This document shows positions 1,888 through 44,365 of a stretch of 64,000 nt of DNA, piece by piece (the stretch's first letter is position 1; each line of letters opens with the position of its first letter). Both the position numbers and the translations under genes were made by a program. This stretch comes from Candidatus Doudnabacteria bacterium (GTDB taxonomy: Bacteria; Patescibacteriota; Doudnabacteria; UBA920): the NCBI GenBank assembly GCA_023245895.1, contig JAHFJJ010000002.1, positions 3,348 through 67,347 on the forward strand, written 5' to 3'. The notes beneath the pieces were generated by a model. That model made no database searches. It was not told the DNA's origin and was given only the letters and a program-made list of their open reading frames with translations.

Positions 1888-1890
1888 TTT

Positions 1891-2048
1891 GTCATTGCGA
1901 GTAGCATATAAGGCGCAGTAATTCTTTTTTGTGTCATCCCGACCGAACTCTAAGCCATTAATAAGTGTGAGCGGAGGGATCGCTTAACGTTGATGTAATT
2001 CGAACGTAAGGGATTCCTAGGCTCAGATGCATTCGCTCGGAATGACAT
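1891..2048. mobile_element. MITE-like element, composite: a gtcattgcgag head plus a ~118-bp copy homologous in reverse orientation to the 44245..44365 element
   Basis: Positions 1931..2048 reverse-complement to ATGTCATTCCGAGCG...GGGATGACAC and align along their length with the element at 44245..44365. Terminal inverted repeats are gtgtcatcccgaccg and cgctcggaatgacat. Confidence 0.6.
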
Positions 2049-5730: not shown

Positions 5731-6219
5731 TTAAGCCGAGCCAATAAAATAGCCGGACAGGAAAACCAGGATGCCTCCCACCACGACTTGCAGGCAGGAA
5801 AGCCAAAATTTCATCTTTAAAAAATGATAGCGAATGAAGGCAATGGCAATGAGTTCAATGCCTACAATAATGTAGGCAAGGTATAAAGCGGTGGTAAGGT
5901 CCTTGAGCAAAAAAGGCAGGGTGTGGAATACGCCGCCCACGAATGTCATGCCGCCGGTAATTAGGCCTCGCGCTACGGGGTGTCCGCGGCCGGTGAGTTC
6001 GCCGGTGTCGGAAAGGCCCTCGGCAAAAGCCATGCTAATGCCCGCGCCGGTGGCGGCCGACATGCCGACTAAAAAAGCAATGTGCGCGCTGCCGGTGGCG
6101 TAAGCCGTGGCAAACAGCGGCGCCAGCGTGGAAACCGAGCCGTCCATAAGCCCCAGCAGTCCCGGCTGGATTATCCTGCGCAAAAAGTTGGAATCGTGAT
6201 GGTGTTGTGGGTCTATCAT
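5731..6219 (-). CDS. VIT1/CCC1-family (DUF125) membrane protein
   Basis: Contains GMSAATGAGISMAFAEGLS plus several TM helices. The annotated N-terminus (MIDPQHH) lies inside the left inverted repeat of the GIY-YIG element, so the true start is probably the downstream Met (MDGSVST, about 6147). Confidence 0.7.
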   Translation of the reverse strand: MIDPQHHHDSNFLRRIIQPGLLGLMDGSVSTLAPLFATAYATGSAHIAFLVGMSAATGAGISMAFAEGLSDTGELTGRGHPVARGLITGGMTFVGGVFHTLPFLLKDLTTALYLAYIIVGIELIAIAFIRYHFLKMKFWLSCLQVVVGGILVFLSGYFIGSA

Positions 6220-6499
6220 CCCGTTAGAGACAGGGAACGCTTCAATCTGTTTTTCAGACAGCGTTTTCCCATGCCAGATTTTAAATATCTTTCTCTTGCC
6301 ATTGCGTCAAACTTATCAGTTGATGCTTCATAATAAATAAGTTCAAATGGCCCGCGACCTTTAGTGTAAGTTGATAAATTACTATTGTGCTGATTGAAGC
6401 GTTTCCGTAAGTCTTTAGTAAAGCCTGTGTAGAGATTGCCAGTCTTTTTACTTTTTAAAACGTATACATAATACATAAGCCGTCTCTAACGGGATCATA
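6214..6499. mobile_element. small GIY-YIG-carrying element bounded by 16-bp inverted repeats (atcccgttagagacag / cgtctctaacgggat)
   Basis: The inverted repeats at 6218..6233 and 6481..6497 bracket an 86-aa GIY-YIG ORF. The whole element sits at the 5' end of the VIT gene. Confidence 0.6.
6216..6476 (-). CDS. GIY-YIG nuclease domain protein (small URI-domain endonuclease)
   Basis: Has MYYVYVLKS...GNLYTGFTKDLRKRFNQHN...ELIYYE...ARERYLK, the hallmark residues of the GIY-YIG superfamily. Confidence 0.8.
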   Translation of the reverse strand: MYYVYVLKSKKTGNLYTGFTKDLRKRFNQHNSNLSTYTKGRGPFELIYYEASTDKFDAMARERYLKSGMGKRCLKNRLKRSLSLTG

Positions 6500-16888: not shown

Positions 16889-17731
16889 TTAGAAATTTTT
16901 AATTTTCGGAATTGCCGGCGTTGCCTGGCTTATTTGGGCGTTGTTTGACAGCTCCATGCCGTGGTTTGTAAATTTCACCTCTTTGGCCGCCATAGTAGCC
17001 AGCCATTCGGCTAAGTTTATATACTGTAAACAGTCATGGCCGCTTTGGCAATTGTCTAATTTTTCAAAAAGTTGGGTTTTCATAGCTTCCCAGTTTTTTG
17101 CGGTAATTTTTACTTTCGCGAATTCTTCCGGAAACAAAATTTTCAACAGGGCCGCGCTTTTGCAAAACATATACCAATTGCCGCCTTTATTTTGCGCCAT
17201 ATCTTGTTTCAATAGCGAAACGTCGTTGTCCTTCAACAGGTCTTTTTCTTGGCCAGGGAAAAGAATTTTAAAATAAAGAACGTTGTCTAAATCTACTGTA
17301 CCCCGGCCTGTTATTTTAGGCTTCCTTAAGGCTTCGGCCATTCGTTCGCGATATTGCTCGGCCAATGCTTGCGAAAACCTTTCCGGAAATAAGGTTTTCA
17401 TTTCGGCAAAATTACCAAGCAAATTATCATAGCCCATTTCTCCCCGCTCGCAATGGCGTAAAATGGTTTTGGCGAATTTATCCATCTTCTGCCATTTTTT
17501 ATTGTCAGATTTTTCAAATAGTCTTTTTGGTTCAATCACCTGCAAACTTGCCAAATAAAGGTCAACATTTTCTTTTCGCGCAGACCGTTCCATTTTATCC
17601 CATTGCGCTTTGCTCAAATCCCTTACCGGATCAAAAGGTACATCCTTAGAAGACTCCGCCGAGGGCAACTGCTCCAGGTTTAACGAGCTAATATTCAATT
17701 CTGCCGGGTTAACCCGCTGTTCTATGGACAT
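16889..17731 (-). CDS. tandem-array paralog 6
   Basis: True start MSIEQRVNPAELNISSL; ends PAIPKIKNF. Confidence 0.8.
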   Translation of the reverse strand: MSIEQRVNPAELNISSLNLEQLPSAESSKDVPFDPVRDLSKAQWDKMERSARKENVDLYLASLQVIEPKRLFEKSDNKKWQKMDKFAKTILRHCERGEMGYDNLLGNFAEMKTLFPERFSQALAEQYRERMAEALRKPKITGRGTVDLDNVLYFKILFPGQEKDLLKDNDVSLLKQDMAQNKGGNWYMFCKSAALLKILFPEEFAKVKITAKNWEAMKTQLFEKLDNCQSGHDCLQYINLAEWLATMAAKEVKFTNHGMELSNNAQISQATPAIPKIKNF

Positions 17732-39049: not shown

Positions 39050-39076
39050 TCACAGATAACGCAGATTGGAGCAGGT

Positions 39077-39114
39077 CCCCTCTCCCCATGGGAGAGGGTC
39101 AGGGTGAGGGTTCT
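39077..39114. repeat. REP-like element (cccctctcc-ccat-gggagagggtcagggtgagggttct)
   Basis: Member of the ccctctccc / gggagaggg / gggtgaggg family also seen at 42300, 42695, 42830 and 50808. Confidence 0.7.
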
Positions 39115-39174
39115 GTAGTTAAAATAAAAAAGCCAGATATATAGATTACCGCTGTTATATGTTATAAAAAATTT

Positions 39175-39206
39175 CAGCCCGCAACTCTTGTTAGAGCTGC
39201 GGGCTG
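39175..39206 (+). terminator. dnaE terminator hairpin (cagcccgcaactcttgttagagctgcgggctg)
   Basis: 11-bp stem followed by a partly T-rich segment. Confidence 0.55.
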
Positions 39207-39209
39207 TTG

Positions 39210-39760
39210 GGTTTAGGCTGGTTTCTGCACTTGGCATATTGCCAGCCGCCGCCTCCCCCGGAGGACGGCTTGGTGCGCCGGCGTCGCGCCTGTGTCGGCG
39301 GCGGTGTGCGCCGCGGACGCGGACGGAGGCATTCGTCGGCTCGCCTCCTGGTGTCGAATTGTAAGACGGTGTGGCCGCCATACAATCCTACGTTATAGGA
39401 AAGCGGGGGCCGTTTGTTGCATGCCGCGCAGCGTGAGCCTGCGGCACCGAGAATCAAAGTGCCAGGTCGTGGTTAGTTGCGCCGATTAGCGGTCAGCGCG
39501 GCCGCGTCCTTGGCACCGCTAAAGAAATCCGGTGCTATATCCGACGGTCTCGTTTTTCATCGTCGTTCTCCTTTCTTTTTCTACACGGTCGTCGTTTGCC
39601 GGCGTGTGGGCCGGCGTCACATCAAAAAAAAGGGATCGTGGGTTTGGTAGCTTTTACGCTCCGCCGCATAAGCGAAAGCCGGTGGCGTAAAACAAAGGCA
39701 GAAGCGAATTGAAATGCTTGCGATGGTTCACTGGGGGTTTCCTCCTTTCTCTAGTATTGA
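39210..39760. other. GC-rich non-coding island, a possible structured RNA or foreign remnant
   Basis: GC content is far above the window average. ORFs overlap in every frame, which is typical of GC-rich non-coding DNA. Many GC hairpins are present. One short stretch (taggaaagcgggggcc ... agtgccaggtcgtgg) weakly resembles RNase P RNA P4/P5 sequences. Confidence 0.35.
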
Positions 39761-40136
39761 GAGTAATTATACACCTTTTTGTTGCCTTTGTCAAGGCCTT
39801 TATTTAAAAATTGTCTTAAATAAGGGCTAATTTACCTGTGGAAATCTTCCCTTGCTTAAGCTATCTTCTTCTGTTATAATTTTTTTAGTTCTTCAAGCGA
39901 ATCCCCGCACCAGTCATTACCTAACGGTAATTCCGGTACGGGGCGCAGCCGGACAACCAATTCGGGGAGCTTGGAACAAAGTGAATAAATAAATCTGATG
40001 TGTTCTAGAGCCACATTGGATGAAAAGTCTTTCGGTCAAACGAAAGAATTCTGGGACGGAAACGTCTCCAAGTAGAGACCCCAGGATTTGCTTATCAGTT
40101 TGTTGATGAGTAAATCTTGGGGTTTTTATATTTTTT

Positions 40137-40521
40137 GTGTCTGTCATTGCGAGTGCACCCGAAGCAATCTTTTTATGCAAGACAGAAATTATTACATTTA
40201 TATTTTAACTAACTTTACAAACACAGTACTTTATATAGGTGTTACCAATGACCTTATTAGGCGAGCTTCTGAGCATAGGAATCATTTAGTAAAAGGTTTT
40301 ACCCAAAGATACAATGTTACCAAATTAGTTTATTTTGAAAATACAGAAAGCATCGAAAGCGCAATTGTAAGGGAAAAACAACTAAAAGCAGGCTCCAGAC
40401 AAAAGAAAATAGATTTAATTAATTCCAAAAATCCTAGGTGGGAAGATTTATATAATCAAATAATTTAAGTTGCCCGGAAAGATTGCTTCGTCGTCCGCCT
40501 TAGGCGGACTCGCAATGACAT
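40137..40521 (+). mobile_element. GIY-YIG-carrying mini-element with gtcattgcgag...gaagcaatc / gattgcttc...ctcgcaatgac termini
   Basis: Left end is gtctgtcattgcgagtgcacccgaagcaatc (40137..40169). Right end is gattgcttcgtcgtccgccttaggcggactcgcaatgacat (40481..40521). The ORF lies between. An 87-bp empty version sits at 43377..43463. Confidence 0.7.
40178..40468 (+). CDS. GIY-YIG nuclease domain protein
   Basis: True start MQDRNYYIYILTN, then VLYIGVTNDLIRRASEHR...LVYFE...AIVREKQLK. The ORF track start at 40088 runs across the left terminal repeat. Confidence 0.8.
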   Translation, partial: QDRNYYIYILTNFTNTVLYIGVTNDLIRRASEHRNHLVKGFTQRYNVTKLVYFENTESIESAIVREKQLKAGSRQKKIDLINSKNPRWEDLYNQII

Positions 40522-40533
40522 ATAAGGACACAT

Positions 40534-42288
40534 ATGGACAACCCAAACCAATTAAGTAAAATCCGCCACACGCTGGCACATTTAACCGCGGCCGCTGTCA
40601 GACAGCTTTGGCCCGGCTCCCAAAATTCCATTGGGCCGGCTATAGAAAACGGCTTTTACCAGGATTTTGAAATTGCCGGCGCTATTACGGAAAAAGACCT
40701 GCCGAAAATTGAAAAGAAAATCCGGCAGTTAATCCCCCAATGGACGCATTTTGAAAAAAAAGAGGTGAGCAAAGAGGAAGCCTTAAAAGAATTCGCCTGG
40801 AATAAATATAAAACCGAGCTTATACAAGAATTCGCGCAGGAAGGCAAAAAGCTGACTTTCCATAATTCGCCCGGGTTTATAGATTTGTGCAAAGGCGGCC
40901 ATGTAGAACATCCAAACAAAGAAATAAAGCCGGACGCCTTTAAGCTTACGCACATTGCCGGCGCCTACTGGCGTGGCAACGAGAAAAACAAAATGCTCAC
41001 GCGCATTTACGGCGTGGCTTTTGAGAATAAAGAGGAACTCGAGAAACATCTTGCGATGTTGGCAGAGGCGGAAAAACGCGACCACAAAATTTTGGGACCA
41101 AAATTGGATTTGTTTACTTTTTCCGAAAAAGTCGGGGCCGGCTTGCCGCTTTGGACGCCGAAAGGCACATTGATAAGGGATTTGCTGGACGGCTACGTTT
41201 GGGAACTGCGGAAAAAAATCGGTTACCAAAAAGTGGAAATTCCCCACATTACGAAAAAAGATTTGTATGAAACCAGCGGGCATTGGGATAAATTTAAAGA
41301 CGACTTATTCAAAATCAACACCCGGGACGGTCATCTCTTCGCCATGAAGCCAATGAATTGTCCGCACCACACCCAAATTTACGCGCGGAAAATGTGGAGC
41401 TACCGTGAGTTGCCGCAGCGCTATTCCAGCACTACAATGGTCTACCGCGACGAACAAACCGGCGAACTTTCCGGCCTGGCGCGCGTGTTGAGCATTACAC
41501 AAGATGACGCTCATGTTTTTTGCCGCTTTGACCAGGTTAAAGAAGAGCTGGCGGCCATTTGGGACAAGGTAGTGGAGCCATTTTATAAATCGGTGGGCTT
41601 TAAACTCAAGCTGCGCCTTTCGTTGCGCGACCCAATGCATCCGGAAAGATATTTGGGAGATGCTTCCAGGTGGCTTCAGGCGGAGGAAATTTTGCGCGAC
41701 TTGGCAAAGGAGCGTAAAGTTGAATTCTTTGAAGGCTTGGGCGAGGCTGCCTTTTATGGCCCTAAATTGGATTTTTTGGCTACGGATTCTTTGGGCAGGC
41801 AGTGGCAGGTGGCGACTATCCAACTTGATATGGTTATGCCAGAAAGGTTTGATTTGTACTGCGTTGACGAAAAAGGCCAGCACGAACGGGTGGTTATGCT
41901 GCACGCGGCCATAATGGGTTCTATTGAAAGGTTTATGTCAATTTTAATAGAACACACGGCCGGGGCTTTCCCGCTCTGGCTTTCCCCCGCCCAGGCCATA
42001 GTATTGCCGATATCCAAAAAGCAAAATGTTTACGCTAGAAAGGTTTTGAAAGAATTAACATCGGCGATTCCTGATTTACGCATTGAAATTGATGACAGGG
42101 ATGAATCAGTTGGCAAAAAAATCCGCGAAGCCAGCATGCAGAAAATCCCGTACCAGGTAATACTTGGCGAAAAGGAAATGAAATCTAAGAAGATTACTAT
42201 CCGCACGCGCGAAGGCAAGGACTTGGGCTCAATGCTTTTAAAAAAATTTGCAGGAAAAATTCAGACAGAAATAGAAAAGAAAAAATAA
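40534..42288 (+). CDS. thrS: threonine--tRNA ligase
   Basis: Class II aaRS motifs with the MNCPHH zinc site, FRDE-like motif 2 (VYRDEQTGELSGLARV) and a C-terminal anticodon-binding domain. Confidence 0.92.
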   Translation: MDNPNQLSKIRHTLAHLTAAAVRQLWPGSQNSIGPAIENGFYQDFEIAGAITEKDLPKIEKKIRQLIPQWTHFEKKEVSKEEALKEFAWNKYKTELIQEFAQEGKKLTFHNSPGFIDLCKGGHVEHPNKEIKPDAFKLTHIAGAYWRGNEKNKMLTRIYGVAFENKEELEKHLAMLAEAEKRDHKILGPKLDLFTFSEKVGAGLPLWTPKGTLIRDLLDGYVWELRKKIGYQKVEIPHITKKDLYETSGHWDKFKDDLFKINTRDGHLFAMKPMNCPHHTQIYARKMWSYRELPQRYSSTTMVYRDEQTGELSGLARVLSITQDDAHVFCRFDQVKEELAAIWDKVVEPFYKSVGFKLKLRLSLRDPMHPERYLGDASRWLQAEEILRDLAKERKVEFFEGLGEAAFYGPKLDFLATDSLGRQWQVATIQLDMVMPERFDLYCVDEKGQHERVVMLHAAIMGSIERFMSILIEHTAGAFPLWLSPAQAIVLPISKKQNVYARKVLKELTSAIPDLRIEIDDRDESVGKKIREASMQKIPYQVILGEKEMKSKKITIRTREGKDLGSMLLKKFAGKIQTEIEKKK

Positions 42289-42299
42289 GCAATTTTGTT

Positions 42300-42336
42300 C
42301 CCTCCCCCTTTGGGGGAGGGCTAGGGTGAGGGTTCT
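42300..42336. repeat. REP-like element (ccctccccctttgggggagggctagggtgagggttct)
   Basis: Same family as 39077, placed immediately 5' of the DUF559 gene. Confidence 0.7.
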
Positions 42337-42708
42337 ATGGTAAAAATTAAAAGCTACAATCAACAACTCATAATAAACGCCAGAAATCTAAGAAAAAACT
42401 CCACACCTCAAGAGAGAAAATTGTGGAGTTTTTTGAAGTCTTCAAAATTTTATAGCTTTAAGTTTCGCAGGCAGTTTCCAATTGGAAATTATATTGCCGA
42501 TCTTTGTTGTGTAAAAGTAAAATTAATAATTGAATTGGATGGCGGACAGCATTCAGAGGCTATAAATAAGAAATCCGATGCGAACCGAGACGCTTTTTTT
42601 GACAAGCAAGGCTATAGGATTTTAAGAATTTGGAATAATGAGTTAGATAGTAATTTGGAGGGAGTCGGAGAGAGGCTTTATGAAATGCTCATGAACCCTC
42701 ACCCTTAA
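42337..42708 (+). CDS. DUF559 (Vsr-like endonuclease fold) protein
   Basis: Has FRRQ.PIG.YI.D..C.....IIELDGGQH...D..RD..L...GY.ILRIWNNEL. The C-terminus (MNPHP) is encoded by the flanking REP-like repeat. Confidence 0.8.
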   Translation: MVKIKSYNQQLIINARNLRKNSTPQERKLWSFLKSSKFYSFKFRRQFPIGNYIADLCCVKVKLIIELDGGQHSEAINKKSDANRDAFFDKQGYRILRIWNNELDSNLEGVGERLYEMLMNPHP

Positions 42709-42945
42709 TCCCTCTCCCAGAGGGAGAGGGAAAACTGCAGCTACAACCCTCATCTCTAACCCTTCTCCTCTTCGAGCCTGGGCCTCAGAGCCGAAGGCCA
42801 GGGGGAGAAGGGAATCACCTAGGTTTTAACCCCCTCTCCCCCTGGGAGAGGGACGGGGTGAGGGTTCTATCGTTGTTTTATAACCCTCATCTGTCGCTCG
42901 GCTGCACTCGCGACATCTTCTCCCAGAGGGAGAAGAACTCCGTAG
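42695..42945. repeat. cluster of about four REP-like copies (aaccctcacccttaatccctctcccagagggagaggg; ccccctctccccctgggagagggacggggtgagggttct; degenerate copies)
   Basis: Tandem or degenerate members of the same family lie 3' of DUF559. Confidence 0.65.
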
Positions 42946-42957
42946 TTGTTCCTTTTT

Positions 42958-43383
42958 TTAATTAAATTCAATAACCTCAAACGGCGCTGTAGAAATATCT
43001 ATCCCCTTAGCCGCTTTTTTGTAATGCTCGCGGGCTTTTTTTAGGAACTCTTTTTTGTCTGGTCTGCTGGGGAGGATGAATTTTACTTCTTCTTTTTCCA
43101 CAACCTGTTCAATCCCTAAGTGAATGCGAACGTCCTTAACCGGTTTTTCTAAGGCTACTTCGTCCCCTGCTTTCTGTTCTTCGCCAGTTTGCAGCTGGAA
43201 AATAATAATGTCGCCCGGGCTAATCCGGGTTTGACTGTCTTTTTTTAGCCGCATTTCCATGGTTTTTGTCCCGGCTTCAATTTGGCCAAAGGCCGTAGCC
43301 CCGACATTCAAAATTATTTTTTTGGGATGCTGTTCCCTGTGTTCGTTTGCAAAGGCCATAAGTTTATGGTTTTTATCTGTCAT
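42958..43383 (-). CDS. ASCH-domain protein
   Basis: Has ILNVGATAFGQIEAGTKTMEMRL...ISPGDIIIF. The annotated start lies inside the MITE-like element, so the true start is probably MAFANEH (about 43359). Confidence 0.6.
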   Translation of the reverse strand: MTDKNHKLMAFANEHREQHPKKIILNVGATAFGQIEAGTKTMEMRLKKDSQTRISPGDIIIFQLQTGEEQKAGDEVALEKPVKDVRIHLGIEQVVEKEEVKFILPSRPDKKEFLKKAREHYKKAAKGIDISTAPFEVIEFN

Positions 43384-43463
43384 TGCGAGTCCGCCTAAGG
43401 CGGACGACGAAGCAATCTTATCATCGATTCAAGAGATTGCTTCGGCTGCACTCGCAATGACAG
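43377..43463. mobile_element. MITE-like 87-bp element, an empty derivative of the GIY-YIG element (ctgtcattgcgag-tccgcctaaggcggacgacgaagcaatc...gattgcttcggctgcactcgcaatgacag)
   Basis: Near-perfect inverted termini identical in type to those at 40137..40521, plus an internal tccgcc-taa-ggcgga hairpin. Confidence 0.7.
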
Positions 43464-44244: not shown

Positions 44245-44365
44245 GTGTCATTCCGAGCGATCCGCCTTAGGCGGACGAGCCGAGGAATCCCTTACGTCCG
44301 ATAGTACATCAGCGTTAAGGGATCCCTCCGCTCCCTCAGATGCATTCGGTCGGTCGGGATGACAC
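44245..44365. mobile_element. MITE-like 121-bp element (gtgtcattccgagcg...cggtcgggatgacac)
   Basis: Homologous, in inverse orientation, to 1931..2048. Contains an atccgcc-tta-ggcggac hairpin and imperfect 15-bp terminal inverted repeats. Confidence 0.65.

What the first reader, a model, noticed from the sequence alone, without database searches (positions are those of the whole stretch)
40137..40521. GIY-YIG endonuclease gene framed by gtcattgcgag...gcaatc inverted termini, a candidate autonomous mini-element with MITE derivatives in the same window
The GIY-YIG ORF (true start MQDRNYYIYIL) sits exactly between gtcattgcgag-tgcaccc-gaagcaatc on its left and gattgcttc-gtcgtccgccttaggcggac-tcgcaatgac on its right. 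An 87-bp element at 43377..43463 has the same termini and the same tccgcc-taa-ggcgga hairpin but no ORF. Related hairpin-rich ~120-bp elements lie at 44245..44365 and 1931..2048, mutually inverted, plus a solo gtcattgcgag head at 1891. This is the signature of a small mobile element, possibly homing-endonuclease-like, together with its non-autonomous derivatives.
Basis: seen in the sequence. Interest (0 to 1): 0.6.

Follow-up and report, generated by a model that had tools for sequence, protein, structure and literature searches.

The report
Ssn single-strand nuclease gene with hairpin repeats
This is a small GIY-YIG nuclease gene of the recently described Ssn family, bracketed by its own hairpin repeats and inserted just ahead of the threonyl-tRNA synthetase gene; gene-less pairs of the same repeats lie nearby, so it is a real, probably horizontally mobile cassette of a kind already published in 2025.

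Summary
A 97-aa single-domain GIY-YIG gene (40175..40468) lies between two inverted 'TGTCATTGCGAG...GAAGCAATC' units (40142..40169 +, 40481..40520 -). The same two units recur without a gene at 43378..43462. Two related ~120-bp pairs lie at 44246..44364 and 1932..2047.

This is a member of the Ssn family (Chenal et al. 2025, PMC11893778): site-specific single-stranded-DNA nucleases whose genes are flanked by cognate hairpin repeats (NTS/SRM). The protein is 52% identical, without gaps, to the 94-aa NTS-flanked gonococcal SsnA homologue. In 74 of 80 homologous loci from more than a dozen phyla, such units lie within 200 bp of the gene, a 24-fold enrichment. Head and tail of the units co-vary as a hairpin stem.

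The 'mobile cassette' reading is partly supported:
- DNA similarity to other cassettes stops exactly at the repeat heads.
- The cassette has 34% GC in a 44% GC window.
- The closest relative lacks it at the same dnaE-thrS site.
- An 84%-identical cassette sits before a thrS gene whose protein is only 49% identical.

'Homing endonuclease' is not supported. How copies are made is unknown. I rate it a new member of a known kind, of modest interest.

The parts
40142..40169 (+). Left Ssn-related hairpin repeat (unit A): T-GTC-ATTGC-GAGTGCACCCGAA-GCAAT-C. It ends 5 nt before the ATG.
   Evidence: Nearly identical units precede the closest homologues: L002/L004 have GTCATTGCGAGTGCATCCGAAGCAATC.
40175..40468 (+). 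ssn gene: 97-aa single-domain GIY-YIG nuclease. Catalytic-motif residues are intact (Y9, Y20-I-G22, R30, E67).
   Evidence: Pfam PF01541 E=3e-14. 52% identity without gaps to the gonococcal 94-aa NTS-flanked SsnA homologue, E=6e-33. AF2 model pLDDT 94 with GIY-YIG fold. Invariant columns.
40481..40520 (-). Right Ssn-related hairpin repeat (unit B), with a nested G+C hairpin TCCGCC-TAA-GGCGGA. Its head lies 13 nt before the thrS ATG.
   Evidence: As ssDNA it folds at -9.5 kcal/mol, z=-2.6.
43378..43417 (+). Gene-less copy of unit B.
   Evidence: 47-nt arm 98% complementary to 40479..40525 (I1).
43435..43462 (-). Gene-less copy of unit A (one loop mismatch), 17 nt from the unit B copy. Together they make the 87-bp head-out pair between map and the ASCH gene.
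   Evidence: (I2, I15).
44246..44289 (+). Repeat unit of a second stem class (ATTCC...GGAAT) with the same nested TCCGCC-TTA-GGCGGA hairpin.
44321..44364 (-). Repeat unit of a third stem class (ATCCC...GGGAT). With the previous unit it forms a head-out pair between adk and map.
1932..1981 (+). Repeat unit, ATCCC...GGGAT class.
2012..2047 (-). Repeat unit, ATTCC...GGAAT class. With 1932..1981 it forms the inverted counterpart of 44246..44364.
   Evidence: 85% column identity in inverted orientation.
1890..1927 (+). Degenerate unit: intact TGTCATTGCGAG head, decayed tail GCAGTAATTC.
39873..40136 (+). Context: the thrS 5' leader. It has a TGTTATAAT -10-like box conserved with L148, a conserved core and a 20-bp terminator hairpin at 40077..40124 followed by a T-run. 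The cassette is inserted between this terminator and the thrS ribosome-binding site.
   Evidence: No Rfam family matches.
40534..42288 (+). Context: thrS (threonyl-tRNA synthetase, 584 aa), co-directional with and immediately downstream of the cassette.

Best explanation
The locus is an Ssn/SRM module: a gene for a small site-specific single-stranded-DNA endonuclease of the Ssn family, bracketed head-outward by two copies of its cognate hairpin repeat (an Ssn-related motif, SRM).

Inferred mechanism, by homology with the characterised Neisseria and Wolbachia enzymes:
- When DNA is single-stranded (replication, uptake or transfer), the strand reading 5'-GTC-[palindrome]-C-3' forms a hairpin.
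- The protein binds that hairpin and nicks a few nucleotides 5' of the GTC head. It ignores duplex DNA, RNA and the complementary strand.

What the sequences show directly:
- SRM-ssn-SRM behaves as one compact cassette that has been acquired horizontally.
- Here it has landed in the thrS 5' leader, between the leader terminator and the ribosome-binding site. It is co-directional with thrS, so it is probably expressed by read-through.
- The gene-less head-out SRM pairs at 43378..43462, 44246..44364 and 1932..2047 are dispersed copies of the same repeat family, analogous to REP/BIME clusters around RAYT genes.

What is not shown: whether Ssn itself mobilises the cassette and the pairs, or whether host recombination or replication slippage at the hairpins does so.
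For: Identity of the protein:
- Single GIY-YIG domain, 97 aa; confident GIY-YIG fold.
- tblastn E=2e-22 and BLASTP E=6e-33, 52% identity over 90 aa with no gaps, to the only hit in an N. gonorrhoeae chromosome. That hit is a 94-aa ORF immediately followed by CCGTCATTCCCGCTCAGGCGGGAATCCGG and flanked by further canonical NTS copies.
- The published criterion for an SsnA homologue was tblastn E<1e-10 against N. meningitidis SsnA (PMC11893778).

Repeats:
- All eight intergenic units keep the three features the paper found functionally critical: GTC before the palindrome, the palindrome itself, and C right after it.
- In 80 homologous loci from Patescibacteria, Cyanobacteria, Chloroflexota, Bacteroidota, Pseudomonadota and other phyla, such units occur at 6.6 per kb within 200 bp of the gene. 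Elsewhere in the same loci the density is 0.27 per kb, and in shuffled sequence 0.07 per kb. 74 of 80 loci have at least one unit.
- Several homologues of 56-59% identity are flanked by the exact Neisseria NTS core.
- Head class predicts tail class: ATTGC->GCAATC in 235 of 290 heads, ATTCC->GGAATC in 44 of 67, ATCCC->GGGATC in 23 of 41, ATCCT->AGGATC in 35 of 62. This is compensatory variation of a stem.

Cassette and horizontal acquisition:
- Similarity to L002/L003/L004 starts at 40142/40143. For L003 and L004 it ends at 40520; for L002 it ends at the stop codon, 40468.
- Cassette GC is 34.4% against 44.2% for the window and 46% for thrS and dnaE.
- dnaE-thrS synteny with gaps of 70-110 bp is common in relatives. 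The closest relative, L148, has the leader but no cassette.
- The L163 cassette is 84% identical in DNA, while its neighbouring ThrRS is 49% identical.
- A 47-nt arm of the gene-less pair is 98% identical to the gene's own flank.
Against: - The published degenerate SRM search pattern finds no match in the window and matches only 5 of the 80 homologous loci. The ATTGCGAG class has G where the pattern demands a pyrimidine, and its loops are longer.
- The short units are not thermodynamically stable hairpins on their own: -2.2 to -2.4 kcal/mol, z about 0. Only the units with a nested G+C stem fold well.
- Nearest-unit orientation is head-out in only 31 of the 56 loci that have units on both sides, so a strict terminal-inverted-repeat architecture is not obligatory.
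- No biochemical data exist for this protein or this repeat class.
- CDD cd10448 membership could not be computed.
- The gonococcal ORF is inferred, not documented, to be the orthologue of N. meningitidis NMV_0044.
- Three stem classes occur in the window but only one ssn gene.
Confidence: 0.82

Rival explanations
1. Autonomous IS-like transposon with MITE derivatives. Ssn acts as the transposase, cutting at the two terminal hairpins and moving SRM-ssn-SRM. The gene-less SRM pairs are internally deleted, non-autonomous copies mobilised in trans.
For: - Terminal inverted units bound the region of DNA similarity.
- The gene-less 87-bp pair carries exactly the same two unit subtypes, A and B, as the gene's flanks, at 98% and 81% arm identity.
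- The cassette occurs in unrelated genomic contexts across phyla.
- It is compositionally foreign.
- The Ssn paper itself notes that NTS-ssnA-NTS looks like an insertion sequence.
Against: - No target-site duplication or conserved target is visible next to the eight units.
- Only one gene-bearing copy is in 64 kb.
- GIY-YIG enzymes hydrolyse DNA and have no known covalent intermediate or strand-transfer step.
- In the head-out arrangement the two cleavable strands are opposite strands, so a single-strand 'peel-and-paste' as in IS200/IS605 would not excise the element.
- Orientation of flanking units is variable among homologues.
Confidence: 0.3
2. Domesticated, essentially immobile host system. 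The SRM repeats are host-maintained sites (as proposed for NTS in Neisseria) that mark DNA for Ssn cutting during uptake or replication and so tune recombination. The gene merely sits among its sites.
For: - In N. meningitidis, SsnA and NTS modulate natural transformation.
- Units are intergenic in all eight cases and cluster around a few genes, as NTS do.
- Variable orientation of units around homologues fits sites better than transposon ends.
Against: - Cassette GC is about 10 points below the host's.
- The similarity boundaries are sharp.
- The cassette is absent from the nearest relative at the same site.
- The cassette is 84% identical in DNA next to a ThrRS that is 49% identical.

All four points indicate recent lateral movement rather than long residence.
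Confidence: 0.3
3. Homing-like invasion of repeat pairs. Gene-less SRM pairs are the 'empty' targets. A nick made by Ssn beside a pair is repaired from a gene-bearing copy, with the two SRM units serving as homology arms, which converts a pair into a cassette.
For: - The gene-less 87-bp pair has the same A and B units as the cassette.
- In thrS upstream regions of different lineages one finds a gene-less pair 9 nt before the ATG (L150) or a cassette 13-16 nt before it (window, L103, L163).
Against: - The homology arms are only 27-40 nt.
- Characterised Ssn enzymes do not cut duplex DNA.
- The L150, L103 and window units belong to different stem classes.
- There is no direct evidence of conversion.
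Confidence: 0.1
4. The termini are ordinary intrinsic terminators or generic REP sequences unrelated to the gene, and the GIY-YIG gene is a stand-alone repair nuclease (UPF0213/YhbQ type).
For: - Unit B and the 44246 unit contain a G+C hairpin.
- The closest solved structure is the UPF0213 protein 1zg2.
Against: - No T-run follows any unit.
- The units lie upstream of the thrS start, where termination would be lethal.
- The units are 24-fold enriched next to homologous genes in 80 genomes, and heads and tails co-vary.
- The match to 1zg2 is weak (E=1e-3, 31% identity), whereas the match to the NTS-flanked gonococcal protein is E=6e-33.
Confidence: 0.02

Closest known systems
Ssn nucleases with NTS/SRM repeats (SsnA of Neisseria meningitidis; Chenal et al., Nat Commun 2025, PMC11893778)
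   Same: - Single-domain GIY-YIG protein of about 95 aa.
- 52% identity to the gonococcal homologue.
- Gene flanked on both sides by oriented hairpin repeats with a conserved GTC before and C after the palindrome.
- Further gene-less copies in intergenic regions.
- IS-like SRM-gene-SRM layout.
   Different: - The repeat class here is GTCATTGCGAG...GAAGCAATC: a 5-bp closing stem, a conserved unpaired GAG/CGAA, and a variable, sometimes nested, inner hairpin. It does not match the published degenerate SRM pattern.
- The host is an uncultured, probably Patescibacteria-like organism rather than a proteobacterial symbiont or pathogen.
- Activity and any role in transformation are untested.
REP sequences / BIMEs with RAYT (TnpA-REP, IS200/IS605-related HUH transposases)
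   Same: - A small nuclease gene sits among its own short palindromic repeats.
- The repeats are dispersed in intergenic regions, mostly as inverted pairs: 127 of 150 adjacent pairs in homologous loci.
- Recognition is of hairpins in single-stranded DNA.
   Different: The enzyme is a hydrolytic GIY-YIG nuclease, not an HUH tyrosine transposase, so no covalent intermediate or strand transfer is known.
GIY-YIG homing endonucleases (I-TevI, I-BmoI, free-standing Seg enzymes)
   Same: GIY-YIG catalytic fold, and an association with mobile DNA.
   Different: - Homing enzymes carry a long linker and a DNA-binding domain, cut duplex DNA of the empty allele, and reside in introns or phage genomes.
- This protein is the bare catalytic domain (19 bits against the 56-bit cut-off of TIGR01453).
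- It has no phage homologues.
dRS3 repeats and Correia elements of Neisseria
   Same: - dRS3 (ATTCCC-N8-GGGAAT) is the palindromic core of NTS.
- The ATTCC...GGAAT units at 44246 and 2012 share that core.
- Inverted pairs of short repeats make MITE-like intergenic elements.
   Different: Correia elements are about 100-155 bp with TA duplications and their own inverted ends. No such duplication is seen here.
UPF0213 / COG2827 GIY-YIG proteins (E. coli YhbQ, B. halodurans BH0048, PDB 1zg2)
   Same: Stand-alone GIY-YIG domain of about 90-100 aa. This is the closest solved structure.
   Different: - Only 31% identity and E about 1e-3 to 1zg2.
- A true UPF0213-like gene is present elsewhere in the window (6216..6476) and is only 34% identical to this protein.

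Membership tests
Ssn nuclease family (cd10448) | Single-domain GIY-YIG protein of roughly 90-100 residues with no extra DNA-binding domain | tested here: met
   97 aa; Pfam GIY-YIG covers residues 5-78. The AF2 model is one compact GIY-YIG domain, pLDDT 94.
Ssn nuclease family (cd10448) | Sequence homology to Neisseria SsnA at the published threshold (tblastn E<1e-10) | tested here: met
   tblastn E=2e-22 and BLASTP E=6e-33, 52% identity over 90 aa, to the single 94-aa NTS-flanked ORF of N. gonorrhoeae NZ_CP119140.1. Caveat: this is the gonococcal protein, inferred to be the orthologue of N. meningitidis NMV_0044.
Ssn nuclease family (cd10448) | Assignment to CDD model cd10448 (GIY-YIG_unchar_3) and placement in that clade | not testable with these tools
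   No CDD search or large phylogeny was available. Indirect support: homologues of 56-59% identity are flanked by the canonical NTS core.
Ssn nuclease family (cd10448) | Gene flanked by SRM hairpin repeats in both 5' and 3' regions | tested here: met
   Units at 40142..40169 (+) and 40481..40520 (-). The same association holds in 74 of 80 homologous loci.
Ssn nuclease family (cd10448) | SRM anatomy: oriented palindrome with conserved GTC upstream and C immediately downstream (the positions critical for cutting and binding) | tested here: met
   All eight intergenic units read T-GTC-A(T/C)...-palindrome-C. Stem halves co-vary. Functional positions are taken from the paper.
Ssn nuclease family (cd10448) | Match to the published degenerate SRM search pattern HGTCWYN(0-2)YYVSBRHN(0-5)WNVSBRGN(0-2)RNCYNB | tested here: not met
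   0 matches in the window and matches in 5 of 80 homologous loci. The ATTGCGAG class violates the 'YY' positions and has longer loops. The pattern is a search heuristic, not a definition of the family.
Ssn nuclease family (cd10448) | Cuts only single-stranded DNA, a few nucleotides 5' of its repeat, on one strand | not testable with these tools
   Requires purified protein and oligonucleotide assays.
Insertion sequence with MITE derivatives | Terminal inverted repeats that bound the mobile unit | tested here: met
   Inverted units at both ends. Similarity to other cassettes starts at the left head in L002, L003 and L004 and ends at the right head in L003 and L004.
Insertion sequence with MITE derivatives | Target-site duplication or a conserved target sequence | tested here: not met
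   The 12 nt outside the eight units share nothing beyond the T before GTC.
Insertion sequence with MITE derivatives | Filled versus empty sites in related genomes | tested here: inconclusive
   L148 (DnaE 81%, ThrRS 76%) has the thrS leader and terminator but no cassette, and many relatives have a 70-110 bp dnaE-thrS gap. The junction is too diverged to map to the base. No genome closer than this was found.
Insertion sequence with MITE derivatives | Enzyme capable of strand transfer, and several full-length copies per genome | not testable with these tools
   Only 64 kb is available and it holds one gene-bearing copy. The GIY-YIG chemistry is hydrolytic (established knowledge).
GIY-YIG homing endonuclease | Catalytic domain joined to a DNA-binding domain; located in an intron or intein, or free-standing in a phage genome | tested here: not met
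   97 aa in total. TIGR01453 scores 19.4 bits against a cut-off of 56. The only phage hit is 37% identical at E=8e-7.
REP/RAYT system | HUH (Y1) transposase-like protein next to REP/BIME repeats | tested here: not met
   The protein is GIY-YIG, not HUH. Only the repeat organisation (inverted pairs) resembles BIMEs.

The most novel reading that the evidence does not exclude
SRM-ssn-SRM is an active selfish element of a so far unrecognised mobility class. In this reading a hydrolytic single-strand-specific GIY-YIG nuclease, together with host repair, spreads both the gene-bearing cassette and gene-less SRM pairs. Spread could be by copying cassettes into pre-existing SRM pairs (homing into its own repeats) or by another single-strand route. 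There may be a preference for the short 5' untranslated region just ahead of class II aminoacyl-tRNA synthetase genes: thrS three times, serS and hisS among the closest cassettes.
Probability: 0.2. Interest if true: 0.7.

Novelty: new member of a known kind. Interest (0 to 1): 0.33.

Why it matters
The biology of Ssn nucleases outside Neisseria is unknown. The 2025 paper left open whether NTS-ssnA-NTS is a domesticated or a live mobile element.

This locus adds sequence evidence that the cassette moves as a unit between distant lineages:
- sharp similarity boundaries at the repeat heads;
- foreign base composition;
- an 84%-identical cassette next to a ThrRS that is 49% identical;
- absence at the same site in the nearest relative.

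It also shows that the commonest repeat class around close homologues (GTCATTGCGAG...GAAGCAATC) escapes the published SRM search pattern. Published counts of SRM-associated homologues are therefore probably underestimates.

On the practical side, each new Ssn/repeat pair is a candidate sequence-specific single-stranded-DNA cutter.

None of this changes the basic picture, so the finding is useful but not surprising to a specialist.

Tried and rejected
1. Published SRM pattern: no match in the window and matches in only 5 of 80 homologous loci. I therefore used a looser definition: GTCAY, then a 5-nt stem, its complement within 80 nt, then C. I controlled it by shuffling and by density away from the gene.
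2. Thermodynamic folding of single units as ssDNA: significant only for the unit with a nested G+C stem. The short units fold no better than shuffles. Support for the stem therefore rests on covariation, not energy.
3. Rfam, both strands, at gathering and at E<=1: nothing on the repeats, the thrS leader or the GC-rich block.
4. Structure search: AFDB50 was not available. The PDB gave only generic GIY-YIG folds and no Ssn structure.
5. Exact-protein look-up of ThrRS: not on record. The exact Ssn protein is on one 1196-nt ENA contig identical to the window, which adds no context.
6. Reciprocal empty-site test using the gene-less pair in L148: there is no synteny with the window downstream of thrS.
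7. Idea that cassettes prefer the site just upstream of class II aminoacyl-tRNA synthetase genes. This held for 5 of the first 8 close cassettes. An independent sample of three further homologues gave 0 of 3. It is kept as an unexplained observation, not a claim.
8. Target-site duplications: none found.
9. Matches at 17447 and 61143: inside long ORFs, rejected as chance.
10. Literature: no follow-up work on Ssn mobility, and nothing on GIY-YIG MITEs in bacteria, in the held library.
Full report
OBSERVATION

A 97-codon ORF (40175..40468, +; MQDRNYYIYIL...) is a single GIY-YIG domain (Pfam PF01541, E=3e-14). The longer TTG-started ORF in the mechanical list is not credible, because homologues are 95-97 aa and start at the same methionine.

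Five nucleotides upstream of the ATG ends the unit T-GTC-ATTGC-GAGTGCACCCGAA-GCAAT-C (40142..40169, +). Twelve nucleotides after the stop codon begins the inverted unit T-GTC-ATTGC-GAG-TCCGCCTAAGGCGGAC-GACGAA-GCAAT-C (40481..40520, -).

The 87-bp element at 43378..43462 consists of the same two units in the opposite order, 17 nt apart. One 47-nt arm is 98% complementary to the gene's right end, and a 54-nt arm is 81% complementary to its left end. The ~120-bp elements at 44246..44364 and 1932..2047 align in inverted orientation at 85%. Each is again a head-out pair, with stems ATTCC/GGAAT and ATCCC/GGGAT. A decayed unit with an intact head lies at 1890..1927.

The head and tail words are far over-represented: 8 occurrences against 0.6 expected, and 5 against 0.55. 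No shuffle out of 100 reached either count. Two extra pattern matches (17447, 61143) lie inside long ORFs and are chance. All eight good units are intergenic.

WHAT IT IS

The architecture is the one published in March 2025 for the Ssn family (Chenal et al., Nat Commun 16:2388, PMC11893778). According to that paper:
- SsnA of Neisseria meningitidis is a 94-aa single-domain GIY-YIG protein (CDD cd10448).
- It binds a ~28-nt oriented hairpin repeat, NTS (CGTCATTCCCGCGMAVGCGGGAATCYRG), only as single-stranded DNA, and cuts a few nucleotides upstream.
- Duplex DNA, RNA and the complementary strand are not cut.
- The three nucleotides before the palindrome matter most for cutting.
- The cytosine just after the palindrome matters most for binding.
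- Across phyla, the genes of homologues are flanked by related repeats (SRM), often on both sides.

MEMBERSHIP

PLSDB happens to contain two N. gonorrhoeae chromosomes filed as plasmids. The window protein hits each at one place (tblastn E=2e-22). That place is a 94-aa ORF followed at once by CCGTCATTCCCGCTCAGGCGGGAATCCGG, with further NTS copies on both sides. Pairwise identity is 52% over 90 residues with no gap (E=6e-33). This is well past the paper's E<1e-10 criterion. By contrast, the match to the UPF0213 structure 1zg2 is marginal (E=1e-3).

The AF2 model is a confident single GIY-YIG domain (pLDDT 94). The motif residues (Y9, Y20-I-G22, R30, E67) are invariant or nearly so among 41 relatives.

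All eight units keep GTC before and C after the palindrome.

One test fails. The paper's degenerate SRM search string finds nothing in the window and matches only 5 of 80 homologous loci. The ATTGCGAG class has a G where the string demands pyrimidines, and its loops are longer. I treat that string as a search heuristic rather than a definition, but the failure is recorded. cd10448 assignment and enzymatic activity could not be tested.

COMPARATIVE EVIDENCE

A scan of one genome per species returned 80 loci encoding proteins 53-83% identical. They come from Saccharibacteria and other Patescibacteria, Cyanobacteria, Chloroflexota, Bacteroidota, Balneolaceae, Alpha-, Beta- and Gammaproteobacteria, Thermodesulfobacteriota, Nitrospirales, Omnitrophota, Zixibacteria and other groups.

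I defined a unit as GTCAY, then a 5-nt stem, then its complement plus C within 80 nt. Unit density was:
- 6.6 per kb within 200 bp of the gene;
- 0.27 per kb in the rest of the same loci;
- 0.07 per kb after shuffling.
74 of 80 loci have at least one unit.

Stem class of the head predicts the tail:
- ATTGC with GCAATC, 235 of 290 heads;
- ATTCC with GGAATC, 44 of 67;
- ATCCC with GGGATC, 23 of 41;
- ATCCT with AGGATC, 35 of 62;
- ATTCT with AGAATC, 19 of 42.
This is compensatory variation of a stem. It matters because folding energy alone does not distinguish the short units from shuffles.

Homologues of 56-59% identity in Zixibacteria and Omnitrophota are flanked by the exact Neisseria NTS core.

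The nearest upstream unit is '+' and the nearest downstream unit is '-' in 31 of the 56 loci with units on both sides. Head-out is therefore preferred but not obligatory. Among adjacent gene-less units, 127 of 150 pairs are inverted: 80 head-out and 47 head-in. This organisation resembles the BIME clusters of REP sequences.

IS THE CASSETTE MOBILE?

Five observations indicate that SRM-ssn-SRM has moved horizontally as a unit.
1. Boundaries. Nucleotide similarity between the window and the three closest genome loci starts at 40142/40143. For L003 and L004 it ends at 40520, the two heads. For L002 it ends at 40468, the stop codon. The flanks are unrelated.
2. Composition. The cassette is 34.4% GC (ORF 28.9%), against 44.2% for the window and about 46% for dnaE and thrS.
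3. Absence in relatives. dnaE-thrS adjacency is conserved in many related metagenomic contigs, often with only 70-110 bp between the genes. The closest relative found (L148: DnaE 81%, ThrRS 76%) shares a conserved thrS leader with a long terminator hairpin (window 39965..40136) but has no cassette between that terminator and the thrS start.
4. Discordant divergence. A contig (L163) carries a cassette 84% identical in DNA (protein 88%) directly upstream of a thrS gene whose protein is only 49% identical to the window's.
5. Recent copying. The 98% identity of the gene-less arm to the gene's own flank shows recent copying or conversion within this genome.

Against an ordinary transposon:
- No target-site duplication or common target is visible.
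- Only one gene-bearing copy is in the window.
- In the head-out arrangement the two cleavable sites are on opposite strands.
- GIY-YIG enzymes hydrolyse DNA and are not known to join it.

The exact junction of the 'empty' site cannot be mapped, because the AT-rich spacer has diverged. No closer relative was available.

LOCAL CONTEXT AND LIKELY EXPRESSION

A -10-like TGTTATAAT box conserved with L148 (about 39873) and a 20-bp terminator at 40077..40124 followed by a T-run define a thrS leader. The cassette lies between this terminator and the thrS ribosome-binding site. Its right head ends 13 nt before the ATG. It is co-directional with thrS, and no unit is followed by a T-run. The ssn gene is therefore probably expressed by read-through, and thrS expression is preserved. 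This step is inference.

MECHANISM (COMMITTED VIEW)

I put 82% on the view that the protein is a site-specific single-strand DNA endonuclease that recognises the GTC-palindrome-C hairpin of its flanking repeats and nicks just 5' of it. This rests on homology to four characterised enzymes.

I put about 60% on the view that the cassette is, or recently was, horizontally mobile as a unit.

How new copies arise is not known. Candidates are Ssn-dependent transposition, repair-mediated copying into existing SRM pairs, or host recombination at the hairpins. None is demonstrated.

UNEXPLAINED

Among the first eight close cassettes examined, five end 10-17 nt before the start codon of a class II aminoacyl-tRNA synthetase gene:
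- thrS in the window, in L163 and in L103;
- serS in L002, where lysS lies upstream;
- hisS in L164.
In addition, L150 has a gene-less pair 9 nt before thrS.

An independent sample of three more homologues gave none directly upstream of such a gene. I therefore do not claim a target preference. Survival of insertions in permissive 5' leaders is a sufficient explanation.

COMPARISON AND NOVELTY

This is a new member of a known kind. It works like, and by sequence belongs to, the Ssn/SRM system. It resembles REP/RAYT in organisation but not in enzyme. It is not a homing endonuclease.

What this locus adds:
- the repeat class, which is missed by the published pattern;
- nested inner hairpins in some units;
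- three stem classes next to one gene;
- the cassette-level evidence for lateral movement.

SIDE OBSERVATIONS

- The DUF559 gene 1.9 kb downstream (42337..42708) has the same layout with a different repeat, a CCCTCYCCC-N3-GGGRGAGGG hairpin followed by AGGGTGAGGGTTC. It has gene-less copies nearby. DUF559 homologues on Deinococcus plasmids are bracketed by 35-56-nt inverted repeats with similar C/G hairpins. I found no paper describing this.
- A second, UPF0213-like GIY-YIG gene (6216..6476) is bracketed by a perfect 14-nt inverted repeat.
- A GC-rich block (39165..39760, minus strand) has a perfect consensus promoter, an intrinsic terminator and a fold z-score of -4.7, but no Rfam match.

Noticed in passing
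window 42297..42937 (DUF559 ORF 42337..42708 +); repeat copies at 39075..39130, 42297..42335, 42693..42729, 42829..42884, 42916..42937: A DUF559 (Vsr-like endonuclease fold, Pfam E=4e-37) gene is bracketed by inverted copies of a different repeat: a CCCTCYCCC-N3-GGGRGAGGG hairpin followed by AGGGTGAGGGTTC. The right copy encodes the protein's last residues (NPHP*). Gene-less copies lie nearby, and the ORF is 34.7% GC in a 44% GC window. DUF559 homologues on Deinococcus plasmids are bracketed by 35-56-nt inverted repeats with CCTCCCCC...GGGGGAGG hairpins (L168: 56 nt, 95%). L023 also shows flanking hairpins. This looks like a second nuclease-plus-own-hairpin-repeat cassette analogous to Ssn/SRM. 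No paper describing it was found.
   Followed up: partly
window 39165..39794, minus strand: A GC-rich (55-66%) ~590-nt non-coding block lies between dnaE and the thrS leader. It has a perfect sigma-70 consensus promoter (TTGACA-17-TATAAT, 39794..39766) and an intrinsic terminator (39206..39175 followed by a T-run). RNA fold is -231 kcal/mol against -196 +/- 7.5 for shuffles (z=-4.7). There is no Rfam match at E<=1 and no homologue in about 160 held loci. Two mini-ORFs with good Shine-Dalgarno sequences lie near its 5' end. It is a candidate large structured RNA or small-peptide transcript of unknown class.
   Followed up: partly
window 39873..40136 (+); L148 5694..5932: Conserved thrS 5' leader: a TGTTATAAT box, a conserved core (GGGAGCTTGRAACAAA...GTGTTCTAGAGCCAC...CTGGGACGGAARCGTC) and a 20-bp terminator hairpin with compensatory changes between the two genomes. 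No Rfam family matches, including T-box, although another relative (L134) shows a canonical T-box sequence (GGGTGGAACCGCGG) before thrS. It may be a divergent T-box or a new thrS attenuator.
   Followed up: partly
window 6216..6495 (-): A second small GIY-YIG gene (86 aa, UPF0213/YhbQ-like, 34% identical to the Ssn protein) is bracketed by a perfect 14-nt inverted repeat, ATCCCGTTAGAGAC (6218..6231 and 6482..6495). The repeat overlaps the gene's 3' end. There are no other copies in the window.
   Followed up: partly
L163 1..2138; L103 5583..5956; L002 4962..5354; L164 2938..3609; L150 5931..5995: Cassettes closely related to the window's end 10-17 nt before the start codon of class II aminoacyl-tRNA synthetase genes: thrS three times including the window, serS, and hisS. 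A gene-less SRM pair sits 9 nt before thrS in L150. The L163 cassette is 84% identical in DNA, although its ThrRS is 49% identical. Three further homologues did not show the pattern, so it is unexplained rather than established.
   Followed up: partly
window 43381..43383 (start of ASCH-domain ORF 42958..43383, -): The mechanical ATG of the ASCH-domain ORF is supplied by the repeat head (GTCAT read as ATGAC on the other strand). The true start is probably the next Met (MAFANEH...). Repeat heads can create spurious N-terminal extensions in gene calls.
   Followed up: no
window 42882..42915: A fragment resembling SRM unit A (TCGCTCGGCTGCACTCGCGACA, against GATTGCTTCGGCTGCACTCGCAATGACA at 43435..43462) is nested inside a DUF559-type repeat copy. 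This suggests that the two repeat families insert into or recombine with each other in this repeat-rich 2-kb zone.
   Followed up: no
PLSDB records NZ_CP119140.1 and NZ_CP119142.1: Two 2.17-Mb Neisseria gonorrhoeae chromosomes are filed as plasmids in PLSDB. That is how the gonococcal ssnA locus could be read.
   Followed up: no
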